A stretch of 64,000 nucleotides of DNA from IMG/VR virus record IMGVR_UViG_3300021364_000005. One strand, given 5' to 3'. Positions 4,527 through 29,796 of the stretch are shown piece by piece (position 1 is the first letter of the stretch; every line of letters begins with the position of its first letter). The notes beneath the pieces are model-generated. The model made no database searches. It was given only the letters and a program-made list of their open reading frames with translations, and was not told where the DNA came from. Position numbers and translations under genes: made by a program. This DNA is from a virus. Its lineage: Duplodnaviria; Caudoviricetes.

Positions 4527-4554
4527 GAGATCTCCTTTTGTATAAAGTACGTAG

Positions 4555-5739: not shown

Positions 5740-5743
5740 AAGT

Positions 5744-5749
5744 TATTTA
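5744..5749 (-). promoter_or_regulatory. T4-late-like TAAATA box, divergent from 5769-5774
   Basis: TAAATA 4 nt before the GTG of 4555..5739; no SD. Confidence 0.55.
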
Positions 5750-5768
5750 CTCAAATAAAACACGTAGA

Positions 5769-5774
5769 TAAATA
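5769..5774 (+). promoter_or_regulatory. T4-late-like TAAATA box
   Basis: ATAAATA-aaactg-ATG(5781); no SD. Confidence 0.55.
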
Positions 5775-5780
5775 AAACTG

Positions 5781-8085: not shown

Positions 8086-8390
8086 AGATTTTCTTCCATA
8101 GTCCTTGAAATACAAACAATTTCACAAGCTGTGTTGTATTCTAATTCTCTAGCCTGTTCGGCCATCCATTCTGCATCATTTGTTACATCATTCAAGTCTA
8201 CACTATCAACCCATTCGCTCACATATTGTATAACTAATTTAGAGTCATCTAAAAAAGATGCTTCTCTAAACTTAGTGCATAGTCCTGTGTCAATAGCAAT
8301 TTCTTGAATGTGATCTAAAAAAGACTGTTGTGGTGCATAAAATTCTACCTCTGTGTGAGGACGAATAAACTGTCTTGTAAATCTTTTCAT
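8082..8390 (-). CDS. Small hypothetical protein (about 102 aa)
   Basis: ATG at 8390 with GGAGA SD is preferred over the TTG at 8417. Confidence 0.6.
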   Translation of the reverse strand: MKRFTRQFIRPHTEVEFYAPQQSFLDHIQEIAIDTGLCTKFREASFLDDSKLVIQYVSEWVDSVDLNDVTNDAEWMAEQARELEYNTACEIVCISRTMEENL

Positions 8391-8417
8391 TTTTAATCTA
8401 TCTCCGTTTTGTTCCAA

Positions 8418-8423
8418 TAAATA
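8418..8423 (+). promoter_or_regulatory. T4-late-like TAAATA box
   Basis: ATAAATA-ctat-ATG(8428); no SD. Confidence 0.6.
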
Positions 8424-8427
8424 CTAT

Positions 8428-16241: not shown

Positions 16242-16698
16242 ATGATAACTCCTCTCTCATTACACTAGATGTTTTAAAGGGTCCTTTATAATTATACTTT
16301 TGTAAAGTTACTAGTTTCGGACAGAAACTTTTAACCCAACCTTTATCAAATTGGATAATGTAATAACCAGCACAATACAGACTTTTAGATTTCTCACTTT
16401 TCGTAAATAAAGGAAGTTTGTTTTTTACATCATAAATGATATTATAAGGTGTAGTGCTTGTAGGGAAATCATATGCAATTTTATCTACTGACTCAGCATC
16501 ACTGACAGTGTTCTGTGACCATTGTATTTTTGTTCCAAGGTCTTTAGTAAGAGCATTTTTTGTAGGATAAAGTTTTGTACCTGTATCGCAAGTGTACATA
16601 TATTGTTCATCTGATACAGAAAGAGTACCGATATTACTACCGTTACTTTCTAATATCCAAAACTTGTTATCAATAATTGTTTTTGCTTTAATTGTCAT
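16219..16698 (-). CDS. Hypothetical protein
   Basis: Start moved to the ATG at 16698, which overlaps the RNase H stop (ATGA). Confidence 0.65.
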   Translation of the reverse strand: MTIKAKTIIDNKFWILESNGSNIGTLSVSDEQYMYTCDTGTKLYPTKNALTKDLGTKIQWSQNTVSDAESVDKIAYDFPTSTTPYNIIYDVKNKLPLFTKSEKSKSLYCAGYYIIQFDKGWVKSFCPKLVTLQKYNYKGPFKTSSVMREELSYAVRSTN

Positions 16699-17678
16699 AT
16701 AGGTAGCCTCGCTTGTAATGGTTCTGAAAATGTCTGTACTTGGTCTGCTACTCGTTGCATATCCCACTTAGCACAGAACTTTAATAACCGTACCCCTACG
16801 GTATTAATTTGTTTTTGTTCTACTTGATTGATAGTAGTATTAATTATCTCTCTAATATCTTCTGGTTGTGCTGTTAAGTCGCACAATGTTACATTGCGGT
16901 TGTAGTCGTCCAAAACACGGTGCTCAACGCCATTATGATCAACCCAACGCTGTAGCATAAGATTATTCCAGTTATAACCTTTCGTAGATTTATCTTCAAA
17001 TGCTTCAATTAGTCCTACCTTATTCTTTGTGCCTTTCTTACGTACACCAGGATATGCGGAGAACACATTATCACTTGTGTCGCCACGCATACACTTTTCA
17101 AATAACATCCATTCAGGATGCGGTGCAGGCTTAGGTTCTTTAGTTTTCTTATCAATAACCTCTTTGCCTTTGTCGTCAAAGTAACCTTCATGTGTAATAG
17201 TTGTGTTACTAACACCATTATATTGACGCACATTAGGTGCAATTAACTGTGCGAAGTCACCATCAGTTGAAATAATAACATGATTGTCATTAGGGTGTGT
17301 CTGCACCCATCCTGCAATAAGATCATCTGCTTCTAGCACCTTATTATGTAATACAGTGCAGTTAGTTTTTTCAGATACAAATGCTTTAAACTCGTCAAAT
17401 ACTTCAAAGAAAATTTTATCTTCTTCTGCTTCTCGTGGGCTCATAGCATCACGATGCTCTTTGCGGTTGCGTTTGTAAGGCTCATAATAGTCTTTACGCC
17501 AACTACGTCCTTCTAAGCAAAAAACAACATGATCAGCATTAAAGTCATTCCATGCTTTTCTGATACTCTGTAGAGTAACGTGTAATGCCATGCCTACTTT
17601 CGTGTCAATATCTCCACGCACTACATGACGGGCACGGAAAAACGTATTCATTGTGTCTACAAGTACATAAGTTGCCAT
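16695..17678 (-). CDS. rnh: T4-type RNase H / 5'-3' flap exonuclease
   Basis: VLVDTMN, EADDLIA, STDGDFAQL, GDTSDN acidic motifs. Confidence 0.9.
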   Translation of the reverse strand: MATYVLVDTMNTFFRARHVVRGDIDTKVGMALHVTLQSIRKAWNDFNADHVVFCLEGRSWRKDYYEPYKRNRKEHRDAMSPREAEEDKIFFEVFDEFKAFVSEKTNCTVLHNKVLEADDLIAGWVQTHPNDNHVIISTDGDFAQLIAPNVRQYNGVSNTTITHEGYFDDKGKEVIDKKTKEPKPAPHPEWMLFEKCMRGDTSDNVFSAYPGVRKKGTKNKVGLIEAFEDKSTKGYNWNNLMLQRWVDHNGVEHRVLDDYNRNVTLCDLTAQPEDIREIINTTINQVEQKQINTVGVRLLKFCAKWDMQRVADQVQTFSEPLQARLPI

Positions 17679-17728: not shown

Positions 17729-18142
17729 TTAATTTGTCAAGCAAAATTCTTCCTCAATATACCGTTTTAGTTCATGATCCCCGACATTTTCAGGTAGTTC
17801 TTTTTTATAAAATAGTCTATAACTGTCTGATCCGTACTTACCAATTCCGTATAGTTCTGTTGCATCATTTCCGTCCCAGTCACCGAACTGTTCACTCATG
17901 CGATATAGTCTTTCTGCTCTTATCCTACGCATACCAAGTGGTGCAATTACTTCTTCAATCTCTTTGCGTGTTGCATAAAGCAATGCTTCATGGGTTGGCC
18001 AGCGTTTGAAAAATTTAGGAAGTACAGATTTAACTTGTTTTCTTCCAGTTTGGTTGAGACATATGACACCTACCATATGCTGCCATATGTTATCTACCTG
18101 TTGTTGTACCATTAAATCGTCACGCATGGTTTCCTCATACAT
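17729..18142 (-). CDS. MBD4-like HhH-GPD DNA glycosylase
   Basis: CLNQT...PLG...ELYGIGKYGSDSYRLF...DHEL closely follows the MBD4 glycosylase-domain motifs, including the catalytic Asp. Confidence 0.85.
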   Translation of the reverse strand: MYEETMRDDLMVQQQVDNIWQHMVGVICLNQTGRKQVKSVLPKFFKRWPTHEALLYATRKEIEEVIAPLGMRRIRAERLYRMSEQFGDWDGNDATELYGIGKYGSDSYRLFYKKELPENVGDHELKRYIEEEFCLTN

Positions 18143-18716
18143 AGCTAGTGTTGAAACTTATTACTTGTCTTTTCTCAGTGCTTGTTTCCATTTTAGTCTC
18201 ATGTTCTAACCAGCTAGGAAAGATGTAAAGCGTTAAAGGTTTTGGTTTGACATAGTGATAGTATGTATTATGTTCATTCTCGCCATCGAATAAGTCAAAC
18301 ATCCTGTAAGGTTTAAGAGGGCTATGAAACATCAGTTCGGCACTATCATCTGCGCCTTGCACATACAATGCACCACTGCATACACTTCCTTCGTGTCTAT
18401 GCGGCATCACTTTTGCACCTTTAGATGTTATGTTAGTCCAACAATTTGTAATGCCTAATTTGCGCAAGTTTAATAGTTTCTCGTATTCTGCAATACAAGT
18501 AAACAAAATATCACCTAACCAATCAAAACCTTCTGCATCAGTTAATAAATTTTGATACACAGCATAAGTGCTTACACCATCTCTTATTAAGTCGTGTGTC
18601 TCGCAAACTGATTCTAAATTTTTTAACTGTTCTATTTGGCTTTCATTTATAACTTCTTCTAAATTATATTCTAATATGCTAGTCGGAAAGACGCTATGTA
18701 AGCCAATTTGTATCAT
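18135..18716 (-). CDS. 2OG-Fe(II) oxygenase (TIGR02466-like)
   Basis: PHRH...SGALYV...IFPSWLEH...R-VISFN. Confidence 0.75.
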   Translation of the reverse strand: MIQIGLHSVFPTSILEYNLEEVINESQIEQLKNLESVCETHDLIRDGVSTYAVYQNLLTDAEGFDWLGDILFTCIAEYEKLLNLRKLGITNCWTNITSKGAKVMPHRHEGSVCSGALYVQGADDSAELMFHSPLKPYRMFDLFDGENEHNTYYHYVKPKPLTLYIFPSWLEHETKMETSTEKRQVISFNTSYV

Positions 18717-19114: not shown

Positions 19115-19269
19115 TATAGTCCTGCCTCCCTAGCACGTTTTTCTAAATCTACGTCTGCTTCTTTACGATTAACTGCATCGTATGAAGGATAACCTTTTTC
19201 AAATACAGGAGCTTCAAATGCTTGTTCATGCTTCTTTGCTTTCTCCACAGTCTTAGGTCCCCCATGCAT
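19114..19269 (-). CDS. Small hypothetical protein (51 aa)
   Basis: Fills the gap between queE and 18713..19114; it is the 3' part of the track ORF 19114..19671. Confidence 0.4.
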   Translation of the reverse strand: MHGGPKTVEKAKKHEQAFEAPVFEKGYPSYDAVNRKEADVDLEKRAREAGL

Positions 19270-20149
19270 TTCCGAATAAGCTAATGTGGAGTCTTGGACT
19301 GAATCGCCATCCTCGCTCCATGCACGAGTTGGCCACTTCTGCCACGTTAAGATTATACTCTTCCGAACGTCCGCCAAGCGGCATAAGATATACTGGACAC
19401 TCGACGCCTGCATCACGATATTCTTGAACAGCACGACCAACTTCTTCAAAGTCGTCCATACTAGCCACGACAAATTTAAAATACTGGCTACTGTTAGTAA
19501 CACTGGCGTAATCACTAGCAACATCAGGCAAGATAGCATCACTCCAAGATTCTCCTGAAACGGAGAGTTTAGGCGAACAACTAAATGTTGTTTTGAATCT
19601 TGCATTGTCTGAAAGATATCGCTTGAAATCTTTGTGTAAAGGTTGTGTAGTGTTTGTTTCAAATGTAACATTTTTTAAGTCCCTCATTTTCGGATGTTCA
19701 AACAGCTCGACATACAGTCGTTGCCAAGCAAGTAATGGCTCACCGCCAGTAAGAATAAGATGAATGTCTTGTCCATTATCCATAGTCCATTTACCTTCTG
19801 GTAGTAAACTAATCAAATGATCAACAACTTCATCTACTTCTGCTAGTTTGTTAAAGTGTTTAAACTCTGGATAGATGCTTGCATATGTATCACAGCCTGT
19901 ATGAATGATAGGCAAGTCCTCAAACTTTTCTGTAGTCTCGTGTACACCTGCATCGAGCAATGCTTTTACTTCTGCATTGTAACGCTGACCTTCTGCGTGC
20001 TGTTCCCAACGATCTTTTTTAGTATCAACACCAAAGTTCATACAACGAAAGTTACAACCAAAGGTACGTAGGAACACACTAGGTACTCCTACGTATTTGC
20101 CTTCGCCTTGTACGCTATAGAACGCTTCACTATACCTCAGTTTCATCAA
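19253..20149 (-). CDS. queE: 7-carboxy-7-deazaguanine synthase (radical SAM)
   Basis: E-FYSVQGEG-YVG-PSVFLRT-GCNFRC...GCDT; LTGGEP; FETN; SPKL; RLH. Confidence 0.9.
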   Translation of the reverse strand: MMKLRYSEAFYSVQGEGKYVGVPSVFLRTFGCNFRCMNFGVDTKKDRWEQHAEGQRYNAEVKALLDAGVHETTEKFEDLPIIHTGCDTYASIYPEFKHFNKLAEVDEVVDHLISLLPEGKWTMDNGQDIHLILTGGEPLLAWQRLYVELFEHPKMRDLKNVTFETNTTQPLHKDFKRYLSDNARFKTTFSCSPKLSVSGESWSDAILPDVASDYASVTNSSQYFKFVVASMDDFEEVGRAVQEYRDAGVECPVYLMPLGGRSEEYNLNVAEVANSCMERGWRFSPRLHISLFGNAWGT

Positions 20150-20414
20150 CGTCCTCCATAATATTTTCTAAATCATCAAACGATGCTACATATTTTTTAT
20201 TTGATCGATCATCTAGTACTTCTACTAATCGACTAGCAGTATCACGTGCAACCAATGCACCTGTGCTTGTGTAATTACCGTATTTTGCAACAGGTAAGTC
20301 TGCCATGCTATACATACCACCTGGACGACCAAATTGATCTAGTGGAATATCTTTTACTGTAAATGTACAGTTGTAAGATTTACCTGGGGTAATATTTTCA
20401 ATTGAAATACTCAT
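20130..20414 (-). CDS. Hypothetical protein
   Basis: ATG overlaps the folE stop (TAATG). Confidence 0.6.
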   Translation of the reverse strand: MSISIENITPGKSYNCTFTVKDIPLDQFGRPGGMYSMADLPVAKYGNYTSTGALVARDTASRLVEVLDDRSNKKYVASFDDLENIMEDVDETEV

Positions 20415-21097
20415 TAGCAAGCAAACTCCTGTTGCAGTTTAATATTGTCAAAGAACTCTTTCTTTGTACCCGGATCGTCTTTAAATGCACCTTTTAGTAC
20501 AGTTGTTTGTGTTAAACTACTATGTGCCATAATGCCACGGTTCTCACAACAACCATGTGTTGCTTGAATATACACACCTAAGTGTTCTGCATTAGTTGCT
20601 AGTTGAATTTGCTTTGCAATTTCGTTTGCAAGTTCTTCTTGCAGTGTTCCACGTCTAGCACACCACTGTGCAATACGTGTATACTTACTAAGTCCAATAA
20701 GTTTCTCAGCGGCAATAATACCAATGTATGCAGTACCTACTACTGGCTGATGATGATGTGAACACATACTTTTTAGTTCTGATCGAACTACAAGCATACC
20801 TTCGTATCGTTCTTCTGAATCATTTGGAAATGCTGTTGCACCCGGCTTTGGATCGTAACGTCCTGCCATAATTTCATTAAAGTACATTTTAGCAAGGCGT
20901 CTTGCTGTACCTTCTGAATTTGGGTCATTAAGACGATCAATTACAAGTGCATCTAGCACACTTTCGAATGCTCTAGTAGCATCGTTAATTAATTCTTCTT
21001 TATCACCACGTTGTAAGACTTGTGAAATATTATCGCCAGCCCAGTAACGGATGCCAGCGTCTTCTAGTTTTTGTTTAATTTGTCTTGCTTTGCTCAA
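20414..21097 (-). CDS. folE: GTP cyclohydrolase I
   Basis: SMCSHH, IGLSK, RR-TLQE, ATHGCCENRG; TTG start with GGAG SD. Confidence 0.95.
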   Translation of the reverse strand: MSKARQIKQKLEDAGIRYWAGDNISQVLQRGDKEELINDATRAFESVLDALVIDRLNDPNSEGTARRLAKMYFNEIMAGRYDPKPGATAFPNDSEERYEGMLVVRSELKSMCSHHHQPVVGTAYIGIIAAEKLIGLSKYTRIAQWCARRGTLQEELANEIAKQIQLATNAEHLGVYIQATHGCCENRGIMAHSSLTQTTVLKGAFKDDPGTKKEFFDNIKLQQEFAC

Positions 21098-21137
21098 TTT
21101 GTTTCTCCGAGTTATAGACGAGGATGTCTATTGTTTT

Positions 21138-21166
21138 AATATACAGTATATTTAGGTTTTTGTCAA
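21138..21166 (-). promoter_or_regulatory. sigma70-type promoter for folE-queE
   Basis: TTGACA-17-TATATT. Confidence 0.75.
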
Positions 21167-21169
21167 CCA

Positions 21170-21415
21170 TTAACCGTTCAATTGTTCTTTTTCATCCAAC
21201 ATATCATCAAGAAAGTATCTTTCAACAATGTCCATTTGATCTTGATATGTTGCCATTTCTGCAAGTTCTTTTTCAATTGCGTCCATGATGTCCGGGTGTT
21301 CGCCAACACCTACAGCATTTTCTAAATATACTTCAATGTTGATTTTATGTTTTTGAATATGTGCATCTGCATGAGCCATTATAGTCTCTAGCATTTTTTG
21401 TTTCATAGTTTTCAT
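21170..21415 (-). CDS. Small hypothetical protein
   Basis: 81 aa; AAGGA SD. Confidence 0.6.
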   Translation of the reverse strand: MKTMKQKMLETIMAHADAHIQKHKINIEVYLENAVGVGEHPDIMDAIEKELAEMATYQDQMDIVERYFLDDMLDEKEQLNG

Positions 21416-21428
21416 GTTAATTTTCCTT

Positions 21429-21998
21429 TTAATAACTTCCCACGTTTTCCCATGGGTACACTAACCATACATCTTTTTCTTCTTTATTAACTTCATCGCA
21501 GTAATAGTTAACCTTGTGCGAAAAGTTACTAGACAAGTTATCCGTTAGTACGGCAAAACGGACATTATTACCGAATACATTATTCCAAACATCATCGCCT
21601 GGTAAACAACTAGATTTCCAATCCTTTATAAGCCAATTAAATGTTGCACCTGTATCGTTGATGTCATCTACAATAAGTATGTTCTTTTTCTTTTGAGGAT
21701 TATGGGTAGATGTTGGATAAAGATCATCTCTATCTCTAACTTCTTCGTAACCGTATGCATCTTCGGCCATCCAACAATTACTTTCTAAATGACTATCATC
21801 GTCACGTAAAGCTATTTTAAGTGCTTCGCAACGGATACCAGTCATATTACTTATAATAGTTGCAGGCACATTGCCTCCTCTGGTTATTCCTATGATGTAA
21901 TCCGGGCGCCAATTATCAGCATACATTTGATTAACTATGCTGACACACATATTTTCTACATCAGTCCATGAATAAATCTTCTTAGAAGGGGATGTCAT
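21429..21998 (-). CDS. Type I purine phosphoribosyltransferase (gpt/hpt-like)
   Basis: IIGITRGG and the PRPP-binding ILIVDDINDTGATF; C-terminal W-VYPWE. Confidence 0.85.
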   Translation of the reverse strand: MTSPSKKIYSWTDVENMCVSIVNQMYADNWRPDYIIGITRGGNVPATIISNMTGIRCEALKIALRDDDSHLESNCWMAEDAYGYEEVRDRDDLYPTSTHNPQKKKNILIVDDINDTGATFNWLIKDWKSSCLPGDDVWNNVFGNNVRFAVLTDNLSSNFSHKVNYYCDEVNKEEKDVWLVYPWENVGSY

Positions 21999-22398
21999 CG
22001 TCTAAACCTCGTTCTTTTAATTTGCCTTTGTAATCCTGTTCGCACATTTTATATATTGTTTTGAAATTATCATATGCTTTTTTAAGTGCAGGATATTCAT
22101 CACACATATTATCTATTTTCTCTAATTCTGGCATCACATCCTTAAACTCAGTTGCAGTAATTGTAATGTTATTTAGGTCAAAAGTTACATCACTTGAGTC
22201 AACTATGCCATCTAAACTTATTGTATACATACCGTCAACGTTTGATGTTGCTAAAGTATCAGTAGTATTAATAGTAATAGTGCTTGGACTTACTGTATCA
22301 TATGCAACACTATAAGTCATATCGTCATAAGGAGAAAAGGAACTTGCCTCTTCTAGGGTGATATAAACTTGATCATCGTCGTCTTTCTTTTTAGACAT
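21982..22398 (-). CDS. Acidic hypothetical protein
   Basis: Start moved to the ATG at 22398 (MSKKKDDD). Confidence 0.55.
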   Translation of the reverse strand: MSKKKDDDDQVYITLEEASSFSPYDDMTYSVAYDTVSPSTITINTTDTLATSNVDGMYTISLDGIVDSSDVTFDLNNITITATEFKDVMPELEKIDNMCDEYPALKKAYDNFKTIYKMCEQDYKGKLKERGLDDDIPF

Positions 22399-23437
22399 CT
22401 GATATGGTCCTATATAATGCGTTTCCACTAAAATAATCTTTGTTCAGTTTCATACGCTGCTTTTCTAAACTTACAATATAATCATCGTAATTTTCCATAT
22501 AGTCAACAATCTTAGCAGTAACATTGCCTCTATATTTTCTATATGAAGAATAATCTTCAGTCCAATCACTTGGATATTTGAATTCAGGAAGTGCCATTTC
22601 GCTATAGCTTAGTCTATCTGGAACCATTGGAATAGCATCTACAAGAGCACCTTCATACCAACTAATACCAAGTGTTTCTTGTAAGTTAGCACTAAACACA
22701 AGTTTTGCTTCACCTAGCAAATTATGGTATTCATTCTTTGTAAGTGTTTGTTCTTGACAAACTATAAACTCGTATTGTGGTAATTGTGCTTTAAGATCAT
22801 GGAATATATCTACTTGTTTTTCCGGAGCAATACGATGCGGGAAAAGAATAAGATCACGCTTTTCCATACCTTTGTAACTATCTAAACTGTTCTTTAGATA
22901 CTCCATAGGCCAGCCTACACGATGAGTTTTATCATCATCTATATCTAAACTTTCAGCAAATAGATCTATATGGAAGTCACTTGCAAAGAAGTTATCGTCA
23001 TAGCATTCATACATTGACTGCTCGGCATGACGTACCCAAGGCTTGTCGCCAATTAATCTTCCGAGGAAGTCTTGGGGATCATAACTTCCGGCGTGCCATA
23101 AGCCCCCAATACGGACATCCACGCCGAGTAATTCTGCCATGTAGCGTAGTTGTATAACAGTAGGGTTCCAAGCATCTGTGTATAAAAAGTAGTCATCGGT
23201 TTTAACTGTTCCATTACAAAACATTTCTCCAATTTGTTCTAGTTGTTTTGATTTATAAACATTAGTTCCGCCAAAATTGAGAAAAGCCCCAGGCGTAGTA
23301 GCCTGCGGCGTTTCCCCTCCGCTGATAACAACGACATCTTCATTTGTAGATCGTTCGAGCTGTTGTGGAAGGTGATCCTTCCATTGCTTAGTATAGCGTG
23401 TGTCAACTGCTTCTATATCTACAATATAAATAGTCAT
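22391..23437 (-). CDS. GT-B fold glycosyltransferase (GT4-like)
   Basis: FPHRIAPEKQ donor-binding loop; Y-NLLGEAK-VFSA-LQETLGIS-YEG-LV-AIP-VPD (E-x7-E motif). Confidence 0.85.
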   Translation of the reverse strand: MTIYIVDIEAVDTRYTKQWKDHLPQQLERSTNEDVVVISGGETPQATTPGAFLNFGGTNVYKSKQLEQIGEMFCNGTVKTDDYFLYTDAWNPTVIQLRYMAELLGVDVRIGGLWHAGSYDPQDFLGRLIGDKPWVRHAEQSMYECYDDNFFASDFHIDLFAESLDIDDDKTHRVGWPMEYLKNSLDSYKGMEKRDLILFPHRIAPEKQVDIFHDLKAQLPQYEFIVCQEQTLTKNEYHNLLGEAKLVFSANLQETLGISWYEGALVDAIPMVPDRLSYSEMALPEFKYPSDWTEDYSSYRKYRGNVTAKIVDYMENYDDYIVSLEKQRMKLNKDYFSGNALYRTISDV

Positions 23438-23649
23438 TAATTACTCCGTTGTTGAAACTTTCGTTGTGCGTGACGGTTCTTTGCACGAATCCAATTTAGG
23501 TGCTTCTGATATGCTTCCCATATAGGAGCTCCTTTTTTATACAAATCGGCTTCGTCAAACTTCTTGCCTTCAAAGCGGCAATAGTCACGAAACTTATCCA
23601 AATCGTTAAACACCTTAGTGTACGCTTCACGATTGAATTTAATAGACAT
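23437..23649 (-). CDS. Small hypothetical protein
   Basis: 70 aa; GAGG SD; coupled to the GT gene. Confidence 0.6.
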   Translation of the reverse strand: MSIKFNREAYTKVFNDLDKFRDYCRFEGKKFDEADLYKKGAPIWEAYQKHLNWIRAKNRHAQRKFQQRSN

Positions 23650-23664
23650 TTTCTCATATTCCTC

Positions 23665-24117
23665 TTATGATTGCTTAGGATAAATGTTGTGGCAGCCATT
23701 TTCTCCATCTTCGGAGACTTCGATAACAACAAAGCGGCCTGGATACTTTGTGTTAATTTCTTCATATAGGTCATCTGCAATCATCTCGCAAGACTTATAA
23801 TCAAGATTTAGTACATCATCTTTATAAAGATTTTCTAACCAGCGTTTGAACTGGATAAATTCAATTTCTCTGTCACTGTGTTTGACACTAATTGTAACTT
23901 TAAAATGGAACATATGGCGATGAGGATAACCTAAAAAGCTAACATCATACTCATCGCCTGTTGCTAGAGCAGGATCTTCTAGTGCCGCAGGATATTTATG
24001 AATTCCTTCCTTTTGAAAAGTGACCCAAATACTGCGGTTTACTTTCGATTCCATATAAATTTTCTTATCTTCTTCTCGCATCATGCGTAACATACCTTCA
24101 TAATAACGTTCTTGCAT
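23665..24117 (-). CDS. queD: QueD-like T-fold protein (6-carboxytetrahydropterin synthase or the DpdL paralog)
   Basis: Metal-binding His triad (EGIH...HRH-F), IEFIQFK, SCE-IA, V-EDGEN. Confidence 0.75.
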   Translation of the reverse strand: MQERYYEGMLRMMREEDKKIYMESKVNRSIWVTFQKEGIHKYPAALEDPALATGDEYDVSFLGYPHRHMFHFKVTISVKHSDREIEFIQFKRWLENLYKDDVLNLDYKSCEMIADDLYEEINTKYPGRFVVIEVSEDGENGCHNIYPKQS

Positions 24118-24124
24118 TGTTTAT

Positions 24125-24153
24125 AGTATACTTTCATAGTAAGATCTTGTCAA
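24125..24153 (-). promoter_or_regulatory. sigma70-type promoter for the queD-GT-PRT unit
   Basis: TTGACA-17-TATACT, nested in the 3' end of 24134..24667. Confidence 0.75.
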
Positions 24154-24667
24154 GTCCATATTTGCTCCAATCTGTAAATTTTTCTCTATCTAACAGATCG
24201 TGCAAACTATGACACCAGACACCTGGGTTGGACGCCTTAAAGTCTTTATCATCAATTTTCAACATAGTGTTGTAATTCCACTGTTTCACGTAAGGCACCG
24301 GAACGCGAAGTTGTGGGATAAAATTGTCATATTCAATTAAGCCTGATTCTAAAAATGCTTCAGCAAGTGCAATAGGAATATCTAAACTACAAAGATAACC
24401 TTCATCAAGGAACTCTGTAATCATATCTTCCCATTCACTCCATTCGTCTGCATCTTCTGGAAAATTAGTACCAGGATTAAAACTATGATTTGCACCAAAG
24501 AACAAGTGCTGACACTTTTCTTTTGTAAAGAATGTCATAATTTCTTCAGTATCTTGAATACCTTCAATAAAAAGTGTTTTCATTTTATATGCAGGAGTCT
24601 TTTCTACTTCGTAACCTGTAAAGTAGCAAACCTTTTCTACAATACCTTCTTCGTAATCTCTTTTCAT
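24134..24667 (-). CDS. Globular hypothetical protein within the dpd cluster
   Basis: 177 aa, coupled; no family recognised. Confidence 0.7.
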   Translation of the reverse strand: MKRDYEEGIVEKVCYFTGYEVEKTPAYKMKTLFIEGIQDTEEIMTFFTKEKCQHLFFGANHSFNPGTNFPEDADEWSEWEDMITEFLDEGYLCSLDIPIALAEAFLESGLIEYDNFIPQLRVPVPYVKQWNYNTMLKIDDKDFKASNPGVWCHSLHDLLDREKFTDWSKYGLDKILL

Positions 24668-24867
24668 CCTAATGCCTTTAGTTCAGTTTCGAGTCTGTGT
24701 ATTTCATCTTTGAGCCAAAGTTTTTGAGTTTTAAGCCTGTTTACTTTGTTATCATCTTCCCACTTATTATACAACTCTTTTACTTCGTCGTCAAGTGCTC
24801 TATGTTTCCGATATAATTCTTGTAAATGGGTTGCAATTTTATTGTGCTTCTCAGTAAAATTACTCAT
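24664..24867 (-). CDS. DUF465/YdcH-like small coiled-coil protein
   Basis: H-ALDD-V...LKTQKLWLKDEI pattern. Confidence 0.7.
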   Translation of the reverse strand: MSNFTEKHNKIATHLQELYRKHRALDDEVKELYNKWEDDNKVNRLKTQKLWLKDEIHRLETELKALG

Positions 24868-26318
24868 TCAAACAACTCCCCAAATTTAGTTTGTGCATTT
24901 ACAGTTTTCTTACCAGTGGCACCCCGTGTGCCAATGATGCTCATCCAGAAGCGGCTGTATTCTTCTACAAGTGCTTCTGCTTTTTGCCGGTCATCCGTTG
25001 CGAATATTTCGTCCACAACATCTCTGAAAAATAGCCTGTCAAAACGCTCTTCCACAAGCATTGCCGGAAGTATTCCGTTGTCGTATTGTCTATTTGCTTC
25101 TTGTACTGCATTAATGTGCATCCATACGTTATGCCCCATCATGATAGCATATGAAAAACTATCCCATGAGGTCTTGCCTTCTTTGCCTATTTTATTTAGA
25201 TCACCTGGACCATATATACAAATATCTTTGGCTTGAAGTTCTGCTGTAATCGGACTATCCATAAAGCTAGGATGTTTGCCTTCTCGAACGAATGCTTGCC
25301 CGAACTGAGTAGTATCTTGTGCAAGTGACTTATCATCTATACTAGGCACCATTCGATATACCCATTTAGTGCGATCTTGTGTTTCAAGTTCACAATAAAT
25401 CTGTCCATTAGCAGTTGCAAGGAATGGAGAAGCACAATCAAACGTAATAGTAAAGTTTTCATTGTGATATTTGCGTACTGCTCTTTGGATATCTGTTAAT
25501 AATGTAGCCCATTCGAGCTTTGAAGTACCTAAGAAGTGCATTACATCATGTATGCCTTTCTCAAGCAATCCGTCAAATCGCAGTGCAACCAAACGCTTGA
25601 GTGCAAGATGAACATCACACATATTTTGTCCACCCATCGACCAACCGTTGAAATGATCATTTGGATATTTCTTAGGATCACAATAATCCTTCATCTGGTT
25701 GTACCAGTCATCCGCATCGGCGTGATTTTCACCTTGGAGAACATTAAGGAACTTACAAGCACCTGTTCGATGTTTCATCCAATAATCATTGTTAATACGT
25801 GTTGCTTTTACTGCTTCTGCATATGTACTAATGCCTGTTGCTTTTGCACCTTCCGGAGAACGTGCAACCCAGGCTGGAATATCAAGTATCATTCCATAGT
25901 CCATATATGCGTCCATCCACTTCAAAACGCCATCACGTTTCTTTTGTGCCTTTGGACAATTTGGATCTTTCCAGTCACCTTCCCAAACACCCTTACCAAT
26001 TTGGAAGCCACCTGAGTCACCAAGTAGCCAAGTGTTTTGTCTATCTCTATTACGCACCATGTCTTCTTTAGGAGCAAACTTATTGACATCTAAGTCAGCG
26101 TGTCCGGCACTATACAAACTCCATTTGTAAGTAAACTGTCCTTCCTGTGCATTTAGATAATTTAAACTTTCAACTCCGTGTGTAAGGTTAGAAGGTATTC
26201 TGGACTTATCCACATATTCTTCATGACGTTGCTTACCTACATAGGTAGCATAAAAGCCACTTAGTGCGGGCAAAAAACGTGCATAATCATTTTGTGTTGC
26301 GGTTAAATCTTTATTCAT
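24864..26318 (-). CDS. dpdA: TGT-fold guanine transglycosylase acting on DNA (DpdA family)
   Basis: GDSGGFQ, MILDIP, NVLQG, MGG, HFLG and FDCASP TGT motifs; clustered with folE, queD and queE. Confidence 0.85.
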   Translation of the reverse strand: MNKDLTATQNDYARFLPALSGFYATYVGKQRHEEYVDKSRIPSNLTHGVESLNYLNAQEGQFTYKWSLYSAGHADLDVNKFAPKEDMVRNRDRQNTWLLGDSGGFQIGKGVWEGDWKDPNCPKAQKKRDGVLKWMDAYMDYGMILDIPAWVARSPEGAKATGISTYAEAVKATRINNDYWMKHRTGACKFLNVLQGENHADADDWYNQMKDYCDPKKYPNDHFNGWSMGGQNMCDVHLALKRLVALRFDGLLEKGIHDVMHFLGTSKLEWATLLTDIQRAVRKYHNENFTITFDCASPFLATANGQIYCELETQDRTKWVYRMVPSIDDKSLAQDTTQFGQAFVREGKHPSFMDSPITAELQAKDICIYGPGDLNKIGKEGKTSWDSFSYAIMMGHNVWMHINAVQEANRQYDNGILPAMLVEERFDRLFFRDVVDEIFATDDRQKAEALVEEYSRFWMSIIGTRGATGKKTVNAQTKFGELFE

Positions 26319-26515
26319 TAATCTTTCACGTTTAAATTGCTTGGGCTATATTGTTCACCATTATAGCCACTTCCAGATCCATCTACACCTGAGTTGCAAG
26401 CAAATACAACTAAGCATAGAAAGAAAGCACTCCACAGTGTAGCTCGTTTACTCCAAAGGATGAATCCATCCATTGCTTCTTCGGCTTGTTTCTGTGCTTG
26501 CTCTGCTGGTGTCAT
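26318..26515 (-). CDS. Single-TM peptide resembling aa3-type cytochrome c oxidase subunit IV
   Basis: Q-EE-MDGFILWS-R...hydrophobic helix...NS resembles the Rhodobacter/Paracoccus CtaH pattern (by eye). Confidence 0.5.
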   Translation of the reverse strand: MTPAEQAQKQAEEAMDGFILWSKRATLWSAFFLCLVVFACNSGVDGSGSGYNGEQYSPSNLNVKD

Positions 26516-27243
26516 TACTTACTCTGTGCTGGCAGGATATAGTCATACTTGGCCATACCGCTGTCTACTGAAATCATCATTGCACCTTGATCTGAGATAC
26601 TCATTGTTGCATCACCATCTAAGTTTAAAATACTTTGAACTTGTGCTACTGGCCAACTCCATGTATGTGCAAGTGTTCCTTCAATACCATGTTGGAAAAC
26701 AAACTCACCTGCGTGTGTACTTGCATCACCAAAGCTAAACACTAGATTTCCGTCTTTAGTACTAACATTAAATGTTGGTTCTTCTGAGTGTGCAGCACTC
26801 ATTAGCTTCATACGTGCAATACTTGCTACACTTGGACTAAAAGTAATCTGCCATTGTGCGCCTTTAAACTTTACAGTTTTAAGTTTTTCTTCAATAATTG
26901 CTTTGTTCATAAAGCGATAATCATTTTGAAAGTCGCCTGCTGCGTTTTCAAAGTGAATGTGTGTTGGAACAACCTCTCCATTACGTTCTGCTGTTACAAC
27001 TTCAATTTTTGCATCCTTTTGATATTCCGGATTTTTCAAATGCAAGCTAAGTTTGTCTAAATTTGGCATACCAAATGTGTCAACAAACTCTGATACAGGC
27101 GAGTGTGTTTCTGCACTTAGGATAACACTTCGATCGTCTGCCATTGAATCAATTAAAGTGCCTTCGTCGTTCTGCACTTTTACAATGCTTAGGAAGCCTA
27201 ATGCATGGGTGTGTGCAACAATGTCTTGTAAGATATCTTTCAT
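26515..27243 (-). CDS. Sliding clamp (gp45/PCNA-like)
   Basis: Size and two-domain beta pattern; ends in YDYILPAQ; own promoter; a clamp loader is in the window. Confidence 0.7.
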   Translation of the reverse strand: MKDILQDIVAHTHALGFLSIVKVQNDEGTLIDSMADDRSVILSAETHSPVSEFVDTFGMPNLDKLSLHLKNPEYQKDAKIEVVTAERNGEVVPTHIHFENAAGDFQNDYRFMNKAIIEEKLKTVKFKGAQWQITFSPSVASIARMKLMSAAHSEEPTFNVSTKDGNLVFSFGDASTHAGEFVFQHGIEGTLAHTWSWPVAQVQSILNLDGDATMSISDQGAMMISVDSGMAKYDYILPAQSK

Positions 27244-27989
27244 ACTGTTTCTCCATTCTTAAATTCTATTATATTGCCTAATTTGTTGTTTGTCAAGAGT
27301 TTTTCTACTGAGTATTTAGGTTTAAAGCCTAAACTTTTTATTTTATCCATATTGGCGCAAGTCCAACTCCGTTCATTCGGGGTATTTAGACGAATTGGCA
27401 AGTCAGGTGCAAAGTCACGGATTCTAAATGGATGGCCTGTGCCTATGTCTATTTCGCCTGTTAGTTTACTATTCATACAAAGTTCTATTGCATCACATAA
27501 ATCTTCTATATGTATAAAGTCTCTGTAATGATTAGTTACATAATCTAGTTCATTGTCTATAAGTTTTTGCAAAAACATACCTTTTCTAGGAGCATATGAG
27601 AAAACTGTATGAAATCTCATGCATAATGTATTAACATAACAAGCTGCTGCTTCTTCGACAATGTATTTGCTTGCAGCGTAAGGATTTAAATGTGGTTCGT
27701 AAATAGAACTAGAACTTGCAATTAACATACGTGTTTCTGGATAACGTTCTAATAGTCTTTTTGTGACCTCTACGTTATTACGCCAGTAGCCTGCAGGATC
27801 GTCCATACTTTCACGCACACCGCTTTTACCAGCAAGATGTATTATTAGGTCAAAGTTTTCACGTAAAGGAATATCTAATAGATCCTGACCGTCTATTAAG
27901 TCAAAGCCTACGACACTATGGTGTCGTGTGAGCCGTTTAAGCAAGTGACTTCCTATAAATCCTCTATGACCCGTTAGACATATATGCAT
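27240..27989 (-). CDS. NAD-dependent nucleotide-sugar epimerase/dehydratase (extended SDR)
   Basis: TGHRGFIGS, HLAG, SSSS, YAASK. Confidence 0.9.
   Translation of the reverse strand: MHICLTGHRGFIGSHLLKRLTRHHSVVGFDLIDGQDLLDIPLRENFDLIIHLAGKSGVRESMDDPAGYWRNNVEVTKRLLERYPETRMLIASSSSIYEPHLNPYAASKYIVEEAAACYVNTLCMRFHTVFSYAPRKGMFLQKLIDNELDYVTNHYRDFIHIEDLCDAIELCMNSKLTGEIDIGTGHPFRIRDFAPDLPIRLNTPNERSWTCANMDKIKSLGFKPKYSVEKLLTNNKLGNIIEFKNGETV
27268..27296 (-). promoter_or_regulatory. sigma70-type promoter for the clamp-dpdA unit
   Basis: TTGACA-17-TATAAT (perfect consensus), nested in the epimerase 3' end. Confidence 0.8.
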
Positions 27990-28671
27990 TTAATTTACTC
28001 CAAGTGTCTTGCCAACCATTGACACTATAATTCATACCATTTTTATTTGCTTGAGCTAATGGAAAATCATTACCATCTTCATCCATTCTATCACCAAAAA
28101 ACAAGATAGTATCGTTTTGGCTAAAATCTCGCATTATTTGGCTTTTATCTGCTCCTACAGGAAAAATATCTATTCCTGTTTCTCCGCCTACCACAGCTTC
28201 TATATCTGGAAACTTTTGTTTAAACATTTTTGCTATAGTAACTCGTTCTTCTGTTCTTTCGTCATGCTGAACATACAATTTGCGCTCACCAAGAGTTGCG
28301 TTTCTTCCTACAACACTAAAATTACACATACCAGGCCTGTCTTCTATGTGTAATCCTGTACGTAGAGGAAACTTACTTAGTGCTAATTCTTCACGCAGCC
28401 ACGCTTCTGCCTCTTCTGGTATACTCCATGTATTTGTAAAAACATTATTATTTTGCTCCCATACATCATTACCGGAACAGTTGTAAACCTTAACTGCTAA
28501 GTTGTATATTGTTGCGCCTACCTGTTCTATAGTTTTGTCTCTATCTGATCCAGTCACAAGGTACACAGCATTATGGGTTGCAAATTGTTCAAACCAAGCT
28601 GCAAATTCTTTATCCATTTTTCCACGGCTTGGGGTAAGTGTGCCGTCTACATCAAATATAAATTTAGACAT
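27964..28671 (-). CDS. Phosphomannomutase, HAD-IIB (eukaryote-type PMM-like)
   Basis: FDVDGTLTP-R; R-GM-NFS-VGR; GGETGIDIFP-G-DK; FFGDR---GND. Confidence 0.85.
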   Translation of the reverse strand: MSKFIFDVDGTLTPSRGKMDKEFAAWFEQFATHNAVYLVTGSDRDKTIEQVGATIYNLAVKVYNCSGNDVWEQNNNVFTNTWSIPEEAEAWLREELALSKFPLRTGLHIEDRPGMCNFSVVGRNATLGERKLYVQHDERTEERVTIAKMFKQKFPDIEAVVGGETGIDIFPVGADKSQIMRDFSQNDTILFFGDRMDEDGNDFPLAQANKNGMNYSVNGWQDTWSKLNAYMSNGS

Positions 28672-29083
28672 TGTTTTGCCTTTCTGCTACCCGCTTTCGC
28701 AAATCACTGGACGAGAAGCGGTGATCTCTTTTGTTAAAGTATAGCTGGATACCCCGCTTCTTGCAAATATCCTTGCCCGTAAAATCCTTTTCACGATACT
28801 CTTCTCCTAATATTCTAACATCAATTTGGTACATTGTCAAGATATCATTTAGGTCTTCTTCAGTGCCGTAAGGAATAATTTCATCTACGTACCCTACTGC
28901 TTTAAGTTGTGTATACCTTTCTACAATAGTTTGTATAGGAGAATTTTTTTCTGATCTATCTATGCTTGGATCAACCTGCAATCCACATATTAGATAGTCG
29001 CATTGTTCTTTTGCTTCACGTAACATTTGTACGTGACCTGCGTGTAATAAATCAAATGTTGAACAAGTAAATCCTACTTTCAT
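28664..29083 (-). CDS. TagD-like cytidylyltransferase
   Basis: STFDLLHAGH (HIGH), VDE-IPY, R-H-FSSS-LR. Confidence 0.9.
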   Translation of the reverse strand: MKVGFTCSTFDLLHAGHVQMLREAKEQCDYLICGLQVDPSIDRSEKNSPIQTIVERYTQLKAVGYVDEIIPYGTEEDLNDILTMYQIDVRILGEEYREKDFTGKDICKKRGIQLYFNKRDHRFSSSDLRKRVAERQNNV

Positions 29084-29796
29084 GATACAAATGCCTTTTC
29101 TTGTACAAAAGTTCCTGCTTGCTTTTTGTTACCTTCATTCCAGCCCCAGTCATTCAACATATCTTTAACATCATTATTAAAAGGCATACTACCACATATC
29201 ATAACTTTATCCTTTTCAGGTGTAGCACCAGTTAGTATTACGCCGGCACTCATTGCTGTTGTTATACGTTTATTTAGGCCCTGCCATTCTCTGTCTTGTG
29301 TAACAATGGGTGTGTAATCGATAGGAAGTTCTTGTAAGAAATCATTATATGCAAGCAATTCCGGCATACTTCGCACACTCCAAACAACATGAATATTATC
29401 AAAACTATCAAAAGTTTCCGGATCTCTTAGTAAACTGATAAATGGAGCGATTCCAGTACCAGTTGCTAACATCCATAAGTCTCCTTTTAATTCTAAATTT
29501 GCTAAAATTAAAGTACCTGTTGCTTTAGAACCTACCTCTAATTGGTCTCCAACTTTTATGTGTTGTAACTTACTTGTTAATGGGCCGTCTTGCACCTTAA
29601 TGCTATAAAACTCTAAGTAGTCATCGTATGGTCCGCTTGTAATGCTGTATGCTCTGCGTATGTCATCATCAGGAAATCCTATCATTACAAATTCTCCTGC
29701 TGTAAATCTATATGATTTAGGACGATTACATTGTATTTTAAATAACCTATCAGTGTAGTGTTCAACACTTGTCACTGTAAGAGTTTCATAGCTCAT
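29080..29796 (-). CDS. fpr: Ferredoxin(flavodoxin)-NADP+ reductase, bacterial subclass I
   Basis: RAYSI, FYSIKV-DGPLTS-LQ, ATGTGIAPF, MICGS, EKAFV C-terminus. Confidence 0.92.
   Translation of the reverse strand: MSYETLTVTSVEHYTDRLFKIQCNRPKSYRFTAGEFVMIGFPDDDIRRAYSITSGPYDDYLEFYSIKVQDGPLTSKLQHIKVGDQLEVGSKATGTLILANLELKGDLWMLATGTGIAPFISLLRDPETFDSFDNIHVVWSVRSMPELLAYNDFLQELPIDYTPIVTQDREWQGLNKRITTAMSAGVILTGATPEKDKVMICGSMPFNNDVKDMLNDWGWNEGNKKQAGTFVQEKAFVS

What the first reader, a model, noticed from the sequence alone, without database searches (positions are those of the whole stretch)
19253..26318. 7-deazaguanine DNA-modification cluster with no QueC in the window
Seen: queE, folE, a QueD-like T-fold gene and a TGT-fold dpdA within 7 kb, interleaved with replication genes. 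No queC, queF or gat-queC is present in 64 kb. Known: FolE-QueD-QueE make CDG, QueC is needed for preQ0/ADG, and phage DpdA exchanges G in DNA as an anti-restriction strategy. Inference: the product is predicted to be a QueC-independent base (dCDG, decarboxylated dDG, or a further derivative), unless queC lies elsewhere or the host supplies preQ0.
Basis: partly seen in the sequence, partly recalled or inferred. Interest (0 to 1): 0.7.

Follow-up and report, generated by a model that had tools for sequence, protein, structure and literature searches.

The report
QueC-less 7-deazaguanine DNA module, jumbo phage
An uncultured marine giant phage carries a gene set that most likely replaces guanine in its DNA with 7-deazaguanine, using an unclassified branch of the base-swapping enzyme plus a sugar-transferase and a purine-salvage enzyme whose roles nobody has explained.

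Summary
On the minus strand lie QueE (19253-20149), FolE (20414-21097), a QueD paralog (23665-24117) and a TGT-fold enzyme (24864-26318). They sit between a FEN exonuclease, a sliding clamp and a family B DNA polymerase.

The "QueD-like" gene is DpdL, the predicted 7-carboxy-7-deazaguanine (CDG) decarboxylase, with its published LxxxHRHxF signature. True QueD is not in the window. In relatives it lies 49-56 kb away.

No QueC or QueF was found in the window, in related contigs up to 256 kb, or in five complete cultured DpdL phage genomes. The most likely product is therefore 2'-deoxy-7-deazaguanine (dDG), which is already known from Cellulophaga phage phiST.

Three things are not described in the papers I searched:
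- The transglycosylase belongs to a large clade (974 clusters at 50% identity). Pfam TGT/DpdA models and BLAST with DpdA2/DpdA3 miss it. It is shared with Pseudomonas phage PA5oct.
- A GT4-like glycosyltransferase accompanies DpdL in five or more phage lineages.
- A purine phosphoribosyltransferase recurs in the module, and sugar-nucleotide genes flank it here.

These suggest a further derivative or a salvage or nucleotide route. The chemistry is untested. Other first-reader notes of this scan flagged the same stretch.

The parts
19253..20149 (-). QueE-like radical SAM enzyme (CDG synthase). The cluster motif is Cx3C, followed by a 49-residue insert before the third Cys.
   Evidence: phrog_2076 E 1.9e-50; NCBIfam QueE models, partial; alignment with phage QueEs.
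20414..21097 (-). FolE, GTP cyclohydrolase I.
   Evidence: PF01227 E 1.5e-38; NF006824 E 3.7e-40.
21429..21998 (-). Purine phosphoribosyltransferase (gpt/hpt-like).
   Evidence: PF00156 E 4e-9; xanthine PRT model E 2e-9. Found in 53 of 80 related loci. Also in the modules of PA5oct (gp163) and L096.
22391..23437 (-). GT4-like (GT-B fold) glycosyltransferase with an EX7E motif (E254...E262) and invariant R202 and K207.
   Evidence: AF2 pLDDT 85.5; GT4 structures at Z 19-23; alignment A5. 45% identical to PA5oct gp167 and 40% to ACP17 gp124. Next to or near DpdL in five cultured lineages.
23665..24117 (-). DpdL, a QueD paralog and the predicted CDG decarboxylase.
   Evidence: Motif LGYPHRHMF fits LxxxHRHxF (signature from PMC10516641). 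Homology to ACP17 and phiST DpdL. Alignment against QueDs.
24134..24667 (-). Conserved 177-aa protein of unknown function.
   Evidence: No family or PDB match. Present in 76 of 80 related loci. 30% identical to ACP17 gp122. Next to the DpdA-like gene in L097 and L098.
24664..24867 (-). DUF465 small coiled-coil protein, a variable member of the cluster.
   Evidence: PF04325 E 1.8e-11.
24864..26318 (-). DpdA-like TGT-fold transglycosylase of an unclassified clade. Invariant D101, S102, G104, D146, H261, G264 and D294.
26515..27243 (-). Sliding clamp. It lies directly upstream of the DpdA-like gene throughout the clade.
   Evidence: phrog_12062; 31% identical to the annotated Phosso clamp; found in 78 of 80 loci.
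27240..27989 (-). SDR sugar epimerase/dehydratase.
   Evidence: PF01370 E 6.9e-24. PA5oct gp164 is an SDR fragment inside its own module.
27964..28671 (-). HAD-type phosphomannomutase.
   Evidence: PF03332 E 2.6e-25.
28664..29083 (-). Cytidylyltransferase-like nucleotidyltransferase.
   Evidence: PF01467 E 6.7e-15.
29080..29796 (-). Ferredoxin-NADP-reductase-like flavoprotein.
   Evidence: PF00175 and PF00970.
17729..18142 (-). Small HhH-GPD DNA-glycosylase-like protein. It moves about within the cluster in relatives.
   Evidence: PF00730 E 1.1e-8; positions in L014, L044 and L061.
16695..17678 (-). 5'-3' exonuclease (FEN/RNase H), the downstream border of the cluster.
   Evidence: PF02739 E 2.1e-19; 51% identical to the PA5oct exonuclease.
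30318..33011 (-). Family B DNA polymerase, the upstream border of the cluster.
   Evidence: PF00136 and PF03104. By size this is the only ORF in that batch that can hold them.

Best explanation
This is a QueC-less, DpdL-type 7-deazaguanine DNA-modification module of an uncultured marine T4-like jumbo phage of roughly 300-350 kb.

Proposed pathway:
1. GTP is converted by FolE, by QueD (encoded about 50 kb away, outside the window) and by QueE into 7-carboxy-7-deazaguanine (CDG).
2. DpdL removes the carboxyl group to give 7-deazaguanine (DG).
3. The 484-aa TGT-fold enzyme exchanges guanine in phage DNA for DG, giving dDG. This blocks restriction at sites that contain G.
4. The PRTase most likely recycles the released guanine to GMP, which feeds back into FolE.

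The GT4-like transferase and the neighbouring sugar-nucleotide genes are conserved companions. Their substrate is unknown.

What is shown here: gene identities, the TGT fold, the conserved catalytic residues, the absence of QueC, and conservation of the module. What is inferred: every chemical step, DNA as the target, and the roles of PRTase and GT.
For: Gene identities.

DpdL:
- It carries the published signature, with Leu in place of the catalytic Cys of QueD (PMC10516641, section 16).
- It is homologous to the DpdL of ACP17 and phiST.
- phiST has FolE, QueD, QueE, DpdL and a DpdA but no QueC. Its DNA has dG fully replaced by dDG (PMC10516641, section 15).

The transglycosylase:
- TGT fold with equivalents of TGT Asp102, Asp156 and Asp280 invariant in 51 homologs. 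The residue roles come from my own knowledge of Z. mobilis TGT.
- It always sits beside the sliding clamp and DNA polymerase.
- A sister clade 45% identical pairs it with a canonical QueC. That is expected of a deazaguanine insertase whose substrate varies.

Absence of QueC:
- No QueC or QueF in the window or in relatives.
- None in five complete DpdL phage genomes.
- QueD is present wherever the contigs reach far enough.

PA5oct: it has the syntenic module. Its DNA resists restriction enzymes in a pattern that suggests modified G (PMC12191111).
Against: - No chemistry was measured for this phage or for any phage with this DpdA clade.
- DpdL decarboxylase activity is only predicted. Co-expression of dpdL and dpdA in E. 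coli gave no dDG (PMC10516641).
- My own profile test of DpdL against QueD was inconclusive (hhalign 19%).
- The GT4-like enzyme is absent from phiST, so the end product here may not be plain dDG.
- PRTases in three lineages, plus P-loop kinases in L096, phiST and Phosso, also fit a nucleotide-level route.
- QueD and the rest of this particular genome were not available to me.
Confidence: 0.6

Rival explanations
1. The end product is a glycosylated or otherwise sugar-linked 7-deazaguanine. The GT4-like enzyme uses an NDP-sugar. Here that sugar would be made by the adjacent phosphomannomutase, nucleotidyltransferase, SDR and reductase. The acceptor would be the deazaguanine as free base, nucleotide or DNA residue.
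For: - The GT has an intact EX7E donor-site motif and a GT4 fold.
- It lies next to or near DpdL in PA5oct-likes, ACP17, Phosso, X1/BUDD, BCSR5, the marine group and L096.
- 17 of the 22 phage records with a GT match also have DpdL.
- Sugar-nucleotide genes adjoin the module. PA5oct has an SDR fragment inside its module.
- From my own knowledge, N2-glycosylated 7-deazaguanine natural products such as huimycin and dapiramicin exist.
Against: - dDG has no obvious acceptor group at C7.
- phiST makes dDG without this GT.
- No paper I could find reports such a base.
- The fold does not identify the acceptor. T4 alpha-GT (Z 17.1) and a pteridine GT (Z 19.0) score no better than ordinary GT4 enzymes.
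- ACP17, X1 and Phosso lack the SDR.
Confidence: 0.2
2. The route is pre-replicative. The PRTase converts DG or CDG to the ribonucleotide. Kinases and ribonucleotide reductase then yield 7-deaza-dGTP, which the phage polymerase incorporates. The TGT-fold enzyme only patches remaining G or has another role.
For: - The PRTase lies inside the module in three divergent lineages and elsewhere in the phiST genome.
- P-loop kinase genes lie in or beside the modules of L096, phiST and Phosso.
- phiST has a MazG-like gene in its cluster.
- Replacement of dG is complete in phiST (PMC10516641).
- From my own knowledge, a CDG-specific PRTase (TubE) is known in tubercidin biosynthesis.
Against: - A TGT-fold enzyme with an intact catalytic triad is conserved everywhere.
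- ACP17, X1 and Phosso lack a PRTase.
- No kinase homolog occurs in the window or in the 80 related loci.
- The published view is post-replicative insertion (PMC10516641).
Confidence: 0.1
3. The product is dCDG, or QueC or preQ0 comes from elsewhere in the genome or from the host. DpdL would then have another role.
For: - dCDG exists in Sulfolobus virus STSV-2 (PMC10516641).
- The DpdL activity is unproven.
- The window covers only about a fifth of the genome.
Against: - QueC is absent from about 275 kb of related contigs and from five complete DpdL phage genomes.
- DpdL co-occurs strictly with QueC-less pathways (PMC10516641).
- CDG was not detected in phiST DNA (PMC10516641).
Confidence: 0.06
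4. The TGT-fold enzyme modifies tRNA, or FolE, the T-fold protein, the SDR and the GT make a pterin glycoside unrelated to DNA.
For: - The fold is as close to tRNA TGTs as to DpdA.
- A tetrahydrobiopterin glucosyltransferase is among the GT4 structural matches (5zer, Z 19.0).
Against: - The gene is embedded between clamp, polymerase and exonuclease genes.
- PA5oct DNA resists restriction enzymes at G-containing sites (PMC12191111).
- DpdL lacks the catalytic Cys that PTPS/QueD chemistry needs.
- QueE is conserved throughout the module.
- The window has no tRNA genes.
Confidence: 0.04

Closest known systems
Cellulophaga phage phiST dDG system (FolE, QueD, QueE, DpdL, DpdA3; Cui et al. 2023, PMC10516641)
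   Same: - A CDG pathway without QueC.
- DpdL with the LxxxHRHxF signature.
- A TGT-fold enzyme next to the replication genes.
- A PRTase encoded in the genome.
   Different: - The transglycosylase is not DpdA3: hhalign 58%, Foldseek E 7.8e-3. It is 484 aa against 259 aa.
- phiST has no GT4-like gene, orf177 or sugar-nucleotide genes.
- phiST has a MazG-like gene and a P-loop kinase inside its cluster.
Pseudomonas jumbo phage PA5oct, gp162-gp168 (Wroclawvirus)
   Same: Syntenic module: polymerase, clamp, TGT-like gp168 (36.5% identical), GT gp167 (45%), DpdL gp166 (61%), SDR fragment gp164, PRTase gp163, QueE gp162, exonuclease. There is no QueC, and QueD lies about 54 kb away.
   Different: - No FolE homolog lies in the 17-kb stretch of the PA5oct module that I read; I did not search the whole PA5oct genome for FolE.
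- Its DpdL reads HFH instead of HRH.
- It has no phosphomannomutase or nucleotidyltransferase block.
- PA5oct DNA is known to resist G-site restriction enzymes, but the base is unidentified. gp168, gp167 and gp166 are annotated as hypothetical (PMC12191111).
Acidovorax phage ACP17 and Xanthomonas phage X1 (DpdA2-type enzyme with DpdL)
   Same: FolE, QueD, QueE, DpdL, the GT4-like gene and, in ACP17, the orf177 homolog lie in one block by the DNA polymerase. There is no QueC.
   Different: Their transglycosylase is the nt-1/DpdA2 type. It is related to the window's enzyme only at profile level: hhalign 96.7%, E 4.7e-10, BLAST not significant. They have no PRTase or SDR.
Bacterial and phage DpdA1/bDpdA preQ0 insertases (for example PDB 7ui4)
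   Same: TGT-fold TIM barrel with the DSGG and FDxxxP-type catalytic motifs (Z 16.5).
   Different: No sequence-level match: Pfam, NCBIfam and PDB profile searches were empty. Those systems need QueC and insert preQ0.

Membership tests
Phage 7-deazaguanine DNA-modification systems (Hutinet 2019; Cui 2023) | A TGT-fold transglycosylase (DpdA family) with the catalytic aspartates. | tested here: met
   AF2 model with pLDDT 92.6. TGT-superfamily structures at Z 15-19.7 against 11.8 or less for other TIM barrels. D101, D146 and D294 invariant in 51 homologs.
Phage 7-deazaguanine DNA-modification systems (Hutinet 2019; Cui 2023) | The CDG pathway genes FolE, QueD and QueE. | tested here: inconclusive
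   FolE and QueE are in the window. QueD is not. It lies 49-56 kb from dpdA in the two related contigs that reach that far. The rest of this genome was not available.
Phage 7-deazaguanine DNA-modification systems (Hutinet 2019; Cui 2023) | A 7-deazaguanine derivative present in virion DNA. | not testable with these tools
   This needs LC-MS/MS. The only indirect evidence is the restriction resistance of the relative PA5oct (PMC12191111).
DpdL (predicted CDG decarboxylase) | The signature LxxxHRHxF replacing the CxxxHGH of QueD. | tested here: met
   LGYPHRHMF at 23908-23934. Alignment with phage QueDs that carry CxxxHGY.
DpdL (predicted CDG decarboxylase) | Homology to phiST CGPG_00067 and ACP17 DpdL. 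| tested here: met
   57% identical to ACP17 gp125 (E 4e-44). 31% identical to phiST gp040 (E 1.4e-13).
DpdL (predicted CDG decarboxylase) | T-fold, as a QueD paralog. | tested here: inconclusive
   A DpdL-only profile found no PDB QueD. hhalign against a four-sequence QueD alignment gave 19%. The link rests on the published HHpred result (PMC10516641).
DpdL (predicted CDG decarboxylase) | Occurs with FolE, QueD, QueE and a DpdA, but without QueC. | tested here: met
DpdA3 | Detectable sequence or profile similarity to phiST and Campylobacter-phage DpdA3. | tested here: not met
   BLASTP not significant. hhalign 58% over 82 columns. Foldseek E 7.8e-3, TM 0.29/0.48.
DpdA2 (Vibrio phage nt-1 type) | Sequence similarity to nt-1 or ACP17 DpdA2. 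| tested here: inconclusive
   BLASTP E 0.078. tblastn of the window protein finds no DpdA2 phage. hhalign against ACP17 gp123 gives 96.7%. Foldseek against nt-1 gives E 1.3e-10, TM 0.47. It is the nearest named subfamily, but a separate clade.
Pfam TGT (PF01702) and any Pfam DpdA model | A score over the family cut-off. | tested here: not met
   No Pfam family at E up to 0.01. PF01702 finds nothing in five related contigs. Whether the Pfam copy used holds the DpdA model PF23859 (named) was not checked.
QueC (PF06508/TIGR00364) | A full-length match plus the C-terminal Cys (zinc) cluster. | tested here: not met
   Two of the four PP-loop paralogs, at 2199-3152 and 3109-4011, score 18-19 bits (cut-off 22) on the first third of the model only. 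These two have no Cys cluster.
GT4 retaining glycosyltransferases (GT-B) | GT-B fold and an EX7E donor-site motif. | tested here: met
   Z 19-23 to SPS, BshA, PglA, PimB' and PimA over the whole chain. E254-x7-E262, R202 and K207 are invariant.

The most novel reading that the evidence does not exclude
The co-conserved GT4-like transferase attaches a sugar to the 7-deazaguanine. Virion DNA of this very abundant marine jumbo-phage group, and of PA5oct and ACP17, would then carry a glycosylated 7-deazaguanine. No such base class has been reported in DNA. It would be inserted or completed by a fifth, unnamed DpdA subfamily.
Probability: 0.2. Interest if true: 0.85.

Novelty: new variant of a known kind. 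Interest (0 to 1): 0.6.

Why it matters
**Ecological reach.** The 484-aa enzyme family has over 7,700 relatives at 90% clustering and 974 clusters at 50%. Most come from marine metagenomes. G-replaced DNA may therefore be common among large ocean phages. That bears on restriction and CRISPR evasion, on sequencing bias, and on guanine and GTP budgets during infection.

**Annotation.** Current annotation pipelines do not recognise the enzyme. It also supplies a transglycosylase candidate for PA5oct: the paper I read names only QueE and a PTPS there (PMC12191111), and the record lists gp168 as hypothetical.

**Open chemistry.** The recurring GT4-like and PRTase genes may be the "other unknown enzymes" that Cui et al. 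suspected when dpdL plus dpdA failed to make dDG in E. coli. PA5oct and ACP17 are cultured, so the question can be tested directly.

Tried and rejected
**Access to the genome**
- No whole genome is held for the window.
- An exact 38-mer was not found in viral contigs.
- The supplements of PMC10516641 are not held.

**Searches that found nothing useful**
- phmmer or profile searches against PDB sequences gave nothing for the DpdA-like enzyme, the 348-aa GT-like protein, orf148, orf177 or a DpdL-only profile.
- The GT profile gave only weak GT4 hits, E 0.09-0.6.
- hhalign of DpdL against QueD gave 19%.
- orf177 is not the Phosso 'glycosylase'.

**Ideas considered and rejected**
- The PP-loop paralogs at 2.2-9.6 kb as a hidden QueC. 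Rejected: the two that match the QueC model do so only on the generic PP-loop part, below cut-off, and have no Cys cluster. All four lie in the radical-SAM island.
- The 2OG-Fe(II) oxygenase at 18135-18716 as a core member. Rejected: it occurs in 3 of 80 related loci.
- P-loop kinases like those of L096, phiST and Phosso. None occurs in the window or in the related loci.

**Literature**
- Searches found no report of a glycosylated deazaguanine in DNA, nor of this DpdA clade.

Full report
**What is in the window.** All genes from 9.6 to 64 kb but one run on the minus strand and are tightly packed. Between a FEN-type 5'-3' exonuclease (16695-17678) and a family B DNA polymerase (30318-33011) the order is as follows:
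- a small HhH-GPD glycosylase-like protein
- a 2OG-Fe(II) oxygenase
- a 133-aa protein
- QueE (19253-20149)
- orf96
- FolE (20414-21097)
- orf81
- a purine phosphoribosyltransferase, PRTase (21429-21998)
- orf148
- a 348-aa protein (22391-23437)
- orf70
- a 150-aa protein (23665-24117)
- orf177
- a DUF465 protein
- a 484-aa protein (24864-26318)
- orf65
- a sliding clamp (26515-27243)
- an SDR epimerase/dehydratase
- a phosphomannomutase
- a cytidylyltransferase-like enzyme
- an FNR-like reductase

The assignments rest.

**The T-fold gene is DpdL, not QueD.** The 150-aa protein reads LGYPHRHMF. Cui et al. (PMC10516641, section 16) define DpdL, the proposed CDG decarboxylase, by a change of the QueD motif CxxxHGH to LxxxHRHxF.
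- The protein is 57% identical to ACP17 gp125. It is 31% identical to phiST gp040, the DpdL gene of the phiST record.
- Aligned with phage QueDs, which read CxxxHGY, it has Leu where they have the Cys. It shares His66, Glu111 and Glu136 with them.
- My own profile tests of the QueD relationship were inconclusive. The T-fold assignment therefore rests on the published HHpred result.
- No true QueD is in the window, by motif scan or by tblastn with four QueDs.
- In related contigs a PTPS/QueD gene lies 49-56 kb upstream of dpdA, in both contigs that reach that far. In this window that position falls beyond base 64000.

**The 484-aa protein is a TGT-fold enzyme of an unclassified clade.**
- Pfam, NCBIfam, PHROGs and PDB sequence searches find nothing. 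It does contain LLGDSGGFQ.
- A search of 1.84 billion cluster representatives gave 974 clusters at E up to 1e-3. The 90% database gave more than 7,700 proteins, on contigs up to 257 kb.
- In 51 diverse homologs S70, D101, S102, G104, D146, P148, N192, H261, G264 and D294 are invariant. By my knowledge of Z. mobilis TGT, D101, D146 and D294 correspond to Asp102, Asp156 and the nucleophile Asp280.
- The AF2 model (pLDDT 92.6) matches TGT structures in Foldseek (top 50 all TGT, E about 5e-7).
- VIA-align gives archaeosine TGT at Z 19.7, QTRT2 at 18.0, bacterial TGT at 17.6, the DNA preQ0 insertase DpdA at 16.5 and Cap10 at 15.0. Generic TIM barrels follow at 11.8 or less.
- Among viral models it is closest to its own clade (TM 0.68-0.78). 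Next come nt-1 DpdA2 (E 1.3e-10), then actinophage DpdA1-type enzymes (about 1e-5), and last phiST DpdA3 (7.8e-3).
- hhalign gives 96.7% to ACP17 gp123, which is itself the nt-1/DpdA2 type (PMC6884629). It gives 58% to phiST DpdA3.
- I therefore treat it as a separate DpdA-like subfamily, nearest to DpdA2.

**Context across relatives.**
- Cultured phages that carry the enzyme are the PA5oct-like jumbo phages (36.5% identical), Vibrio phage 2.275.O and Sinorhizobium phage Phosso. All three annotate it as hypothetical.
- PA5oct has the same order: polymerase, clamp, gp168, GT gp167, DpdL gp166, SDR fragment gp164, PRTase gp163, QueE gp162, exonuclease.
- Eighty IMG/VR loci with 80-97% identical enzymes keep the clamp (78 loci), orf177 (76), DpdL (69), GT (68) and PRTase (53). 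The lower counts reflect contig ends.
- More distant members, 35-45% identical, show several contexts:
  - clamp, DpdL, DpdA-like, GT, FolE, PRTase, QueE, P-loop kinase (L096)
  - DpdA-like, orf177, DpdL (L097, L098)
  - a lone gene in a small integrase-bearing phage (L093)
  - clamp, DpdA-like, a 285-aa protein, canonical QueC with SGGFDS and CxxCxxC (L091)

- The same enzyme clade serving QueC-type, DpdL-type and singleton contexts is the pattern already known for DpdA1 and DpdA2.

**Absence of QueC and QueF.**
- Pfam scans of the called ORFs of the window gave no QueC, QueF or PTPS family. Five ORFs of 41-111 aa were not scanned. In one search only the 25 strongest of 49 families were shown, but a canonical QueC would score far better than the weakest one listed.
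- Four PP-loop paralogs lie at 2199-9630. Two of them match only the N-terminal PP-loop part of QueC, at 18-19 bits against a cut-off of 22. They hit LarE, NadE and TtuA models about as weakly and lack the QueC Cys cluster. All four lie in a radical-SAM island that earlier notes of this scan describe separately.
- Five related contigs of 94-256 kb together span about 275 kb around dpdA. They hold no QueC over cut-off, no QueF and no Pfam TGT.
- The complete genomes of PA5oct, ACP17, Phosso, X1 and phiST all lack QueC and all have QueD.
- CheckV rates the 256-kb contig as 72% complete, so the genome is roughly 300-350 kb.

**Most likely mechanism.**
- By analogy with phiST, the module should make DG through FolE, QueD, QueE and DpdL. 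The TGT-fold enzyme should then put it into DNA. In phiST, LC-MS/MS showed dG fully replaced by dDG and no CDG (PMC10516641, section 15).
[quoted passage not shown] The authors read this as a modified G, and they noted QueE and a PTPS but no transglycosylase (PMC12191111).
- The PRTase is gpt/hpt-like. Salvage of the guanine released at each exchange back to GMP and GTP would close a stoichiometric cycle. This is an inference.

**What does not fit the plain dDG story.**
- The 348-aa protein is a GT4-like GT-B glycosyltransferase:
  - AF2 pLDDT 85.5
  - Z 19-23 to SPS, BshA, PglA, PimB' and PimA
  - EX7E motif E254...E262
  - invariant R202 and K207

- Of the 22 phage records that match this GT, 17 also have DpdL (PA5oct-likes, ACP17, Phosso, X1/BUDD, BCSR5). 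In the four I inspected (PA5oct, ACP17, Phosso, X1) the GT lies next to or one gene from DpdL. The GT is absent from phiST.
- In this window it has a sugar-nucleotide gene set nearby.
- dDG offers no obvious acceptor group, so either the final base differs or the GT acts on an intermediate.
- PRTases recur, P-loop kinases lie in three modules, and phiST has a MazG-like gene. All of this also allows a nucleotide-level, pre-replicative route.
- Cui et al. could not obtain dDG from dpdL plus dpdA alone and suspected missing enzymes. GT, orf177 and the PRTase are the candidates.

**Verdict.**
It can be refined to a DpdL-type module whose default product is dDG.
- This is a new variant of a known kind: an unnamed, very abundant DpdA-like clade with conserved accessory enzymes of unknown role.
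- No chemistry was measured. The cultured relatives PA5oct and ACP17 make the decisive experiments straightforward.
- Other first-reader notes of this scan flagged the same stretch and the same accessory genes. I reached these points from the tool results, and those notes are not independent support.

Noticed in passing
window 2199-9630: Four PP-loop (SGGxDS) paralogs lie at 2199-3152 (+), 3109-4011 (-), 4555-5739 (-) and 8428-9630 (+). Among them are a B12-binding radical SAM (653-2227), an N-terminal-twitch radical SAM (6715-8085), a fatty-acid desaturase and an NMO-like enzyme. This is a separate biosynthetic island and not part of the deazaguanine module.
   Followed up: partly
window 19857-20057 (QueE): The QueE iron-sulfur motif is Cx3C, followed by a 49-residue insert before the third Cys (GCDT). 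Inserts of other lengths occur in the QueEs of PA5oct, X1, L049 and phiST. ACP17 and Phosso keep the canonical Cx3Cx2C.
   Followed up: partly
window 17729-18142: A 137-aa HhH-GPD DNA-glycosylase-like protein changes position within the cluster in relatives. It lies between the PRTase and FolE in L014 and next to the SDR in L044 and L061. Its role in a genome with replaced G is unknown.
   Followed up: partly
L091:10001-13142: A sister phage lineage pairs a 45%-identical DpdA-like enzyme with a canonical QueC and an unassigned 285-aa protein. A Cas12f/TnpB-like gene lies nearby. In this contig the family B polymerase is split and an intein-splicing gene lies between the two parts.
   Followed up: no
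L096:7337-7777; L003:7311-7808; L089:13913-14428: Unrelated P-loop kinase-like genes lie at the edge of the deazaguanine modules of three lineages: L096, phiST and Phosso (annotated as thymidylate kinase). This hints at nucleotide-level steps. No counterpart occurs in the window.
   Followed up: partly
window 40194-63956: This stretch holds ThyX, PhoH, a ClpB-like AAA+ protein, DnaJ, a Bax1-I membrane protein, a subtilase, a ferredoxin, a MazG-like PRA-PH pyrophosphohydrolase and a DNA polymerase III alpha-like fragment. I did not map the hits to individual ORFs.
   Followed up: no
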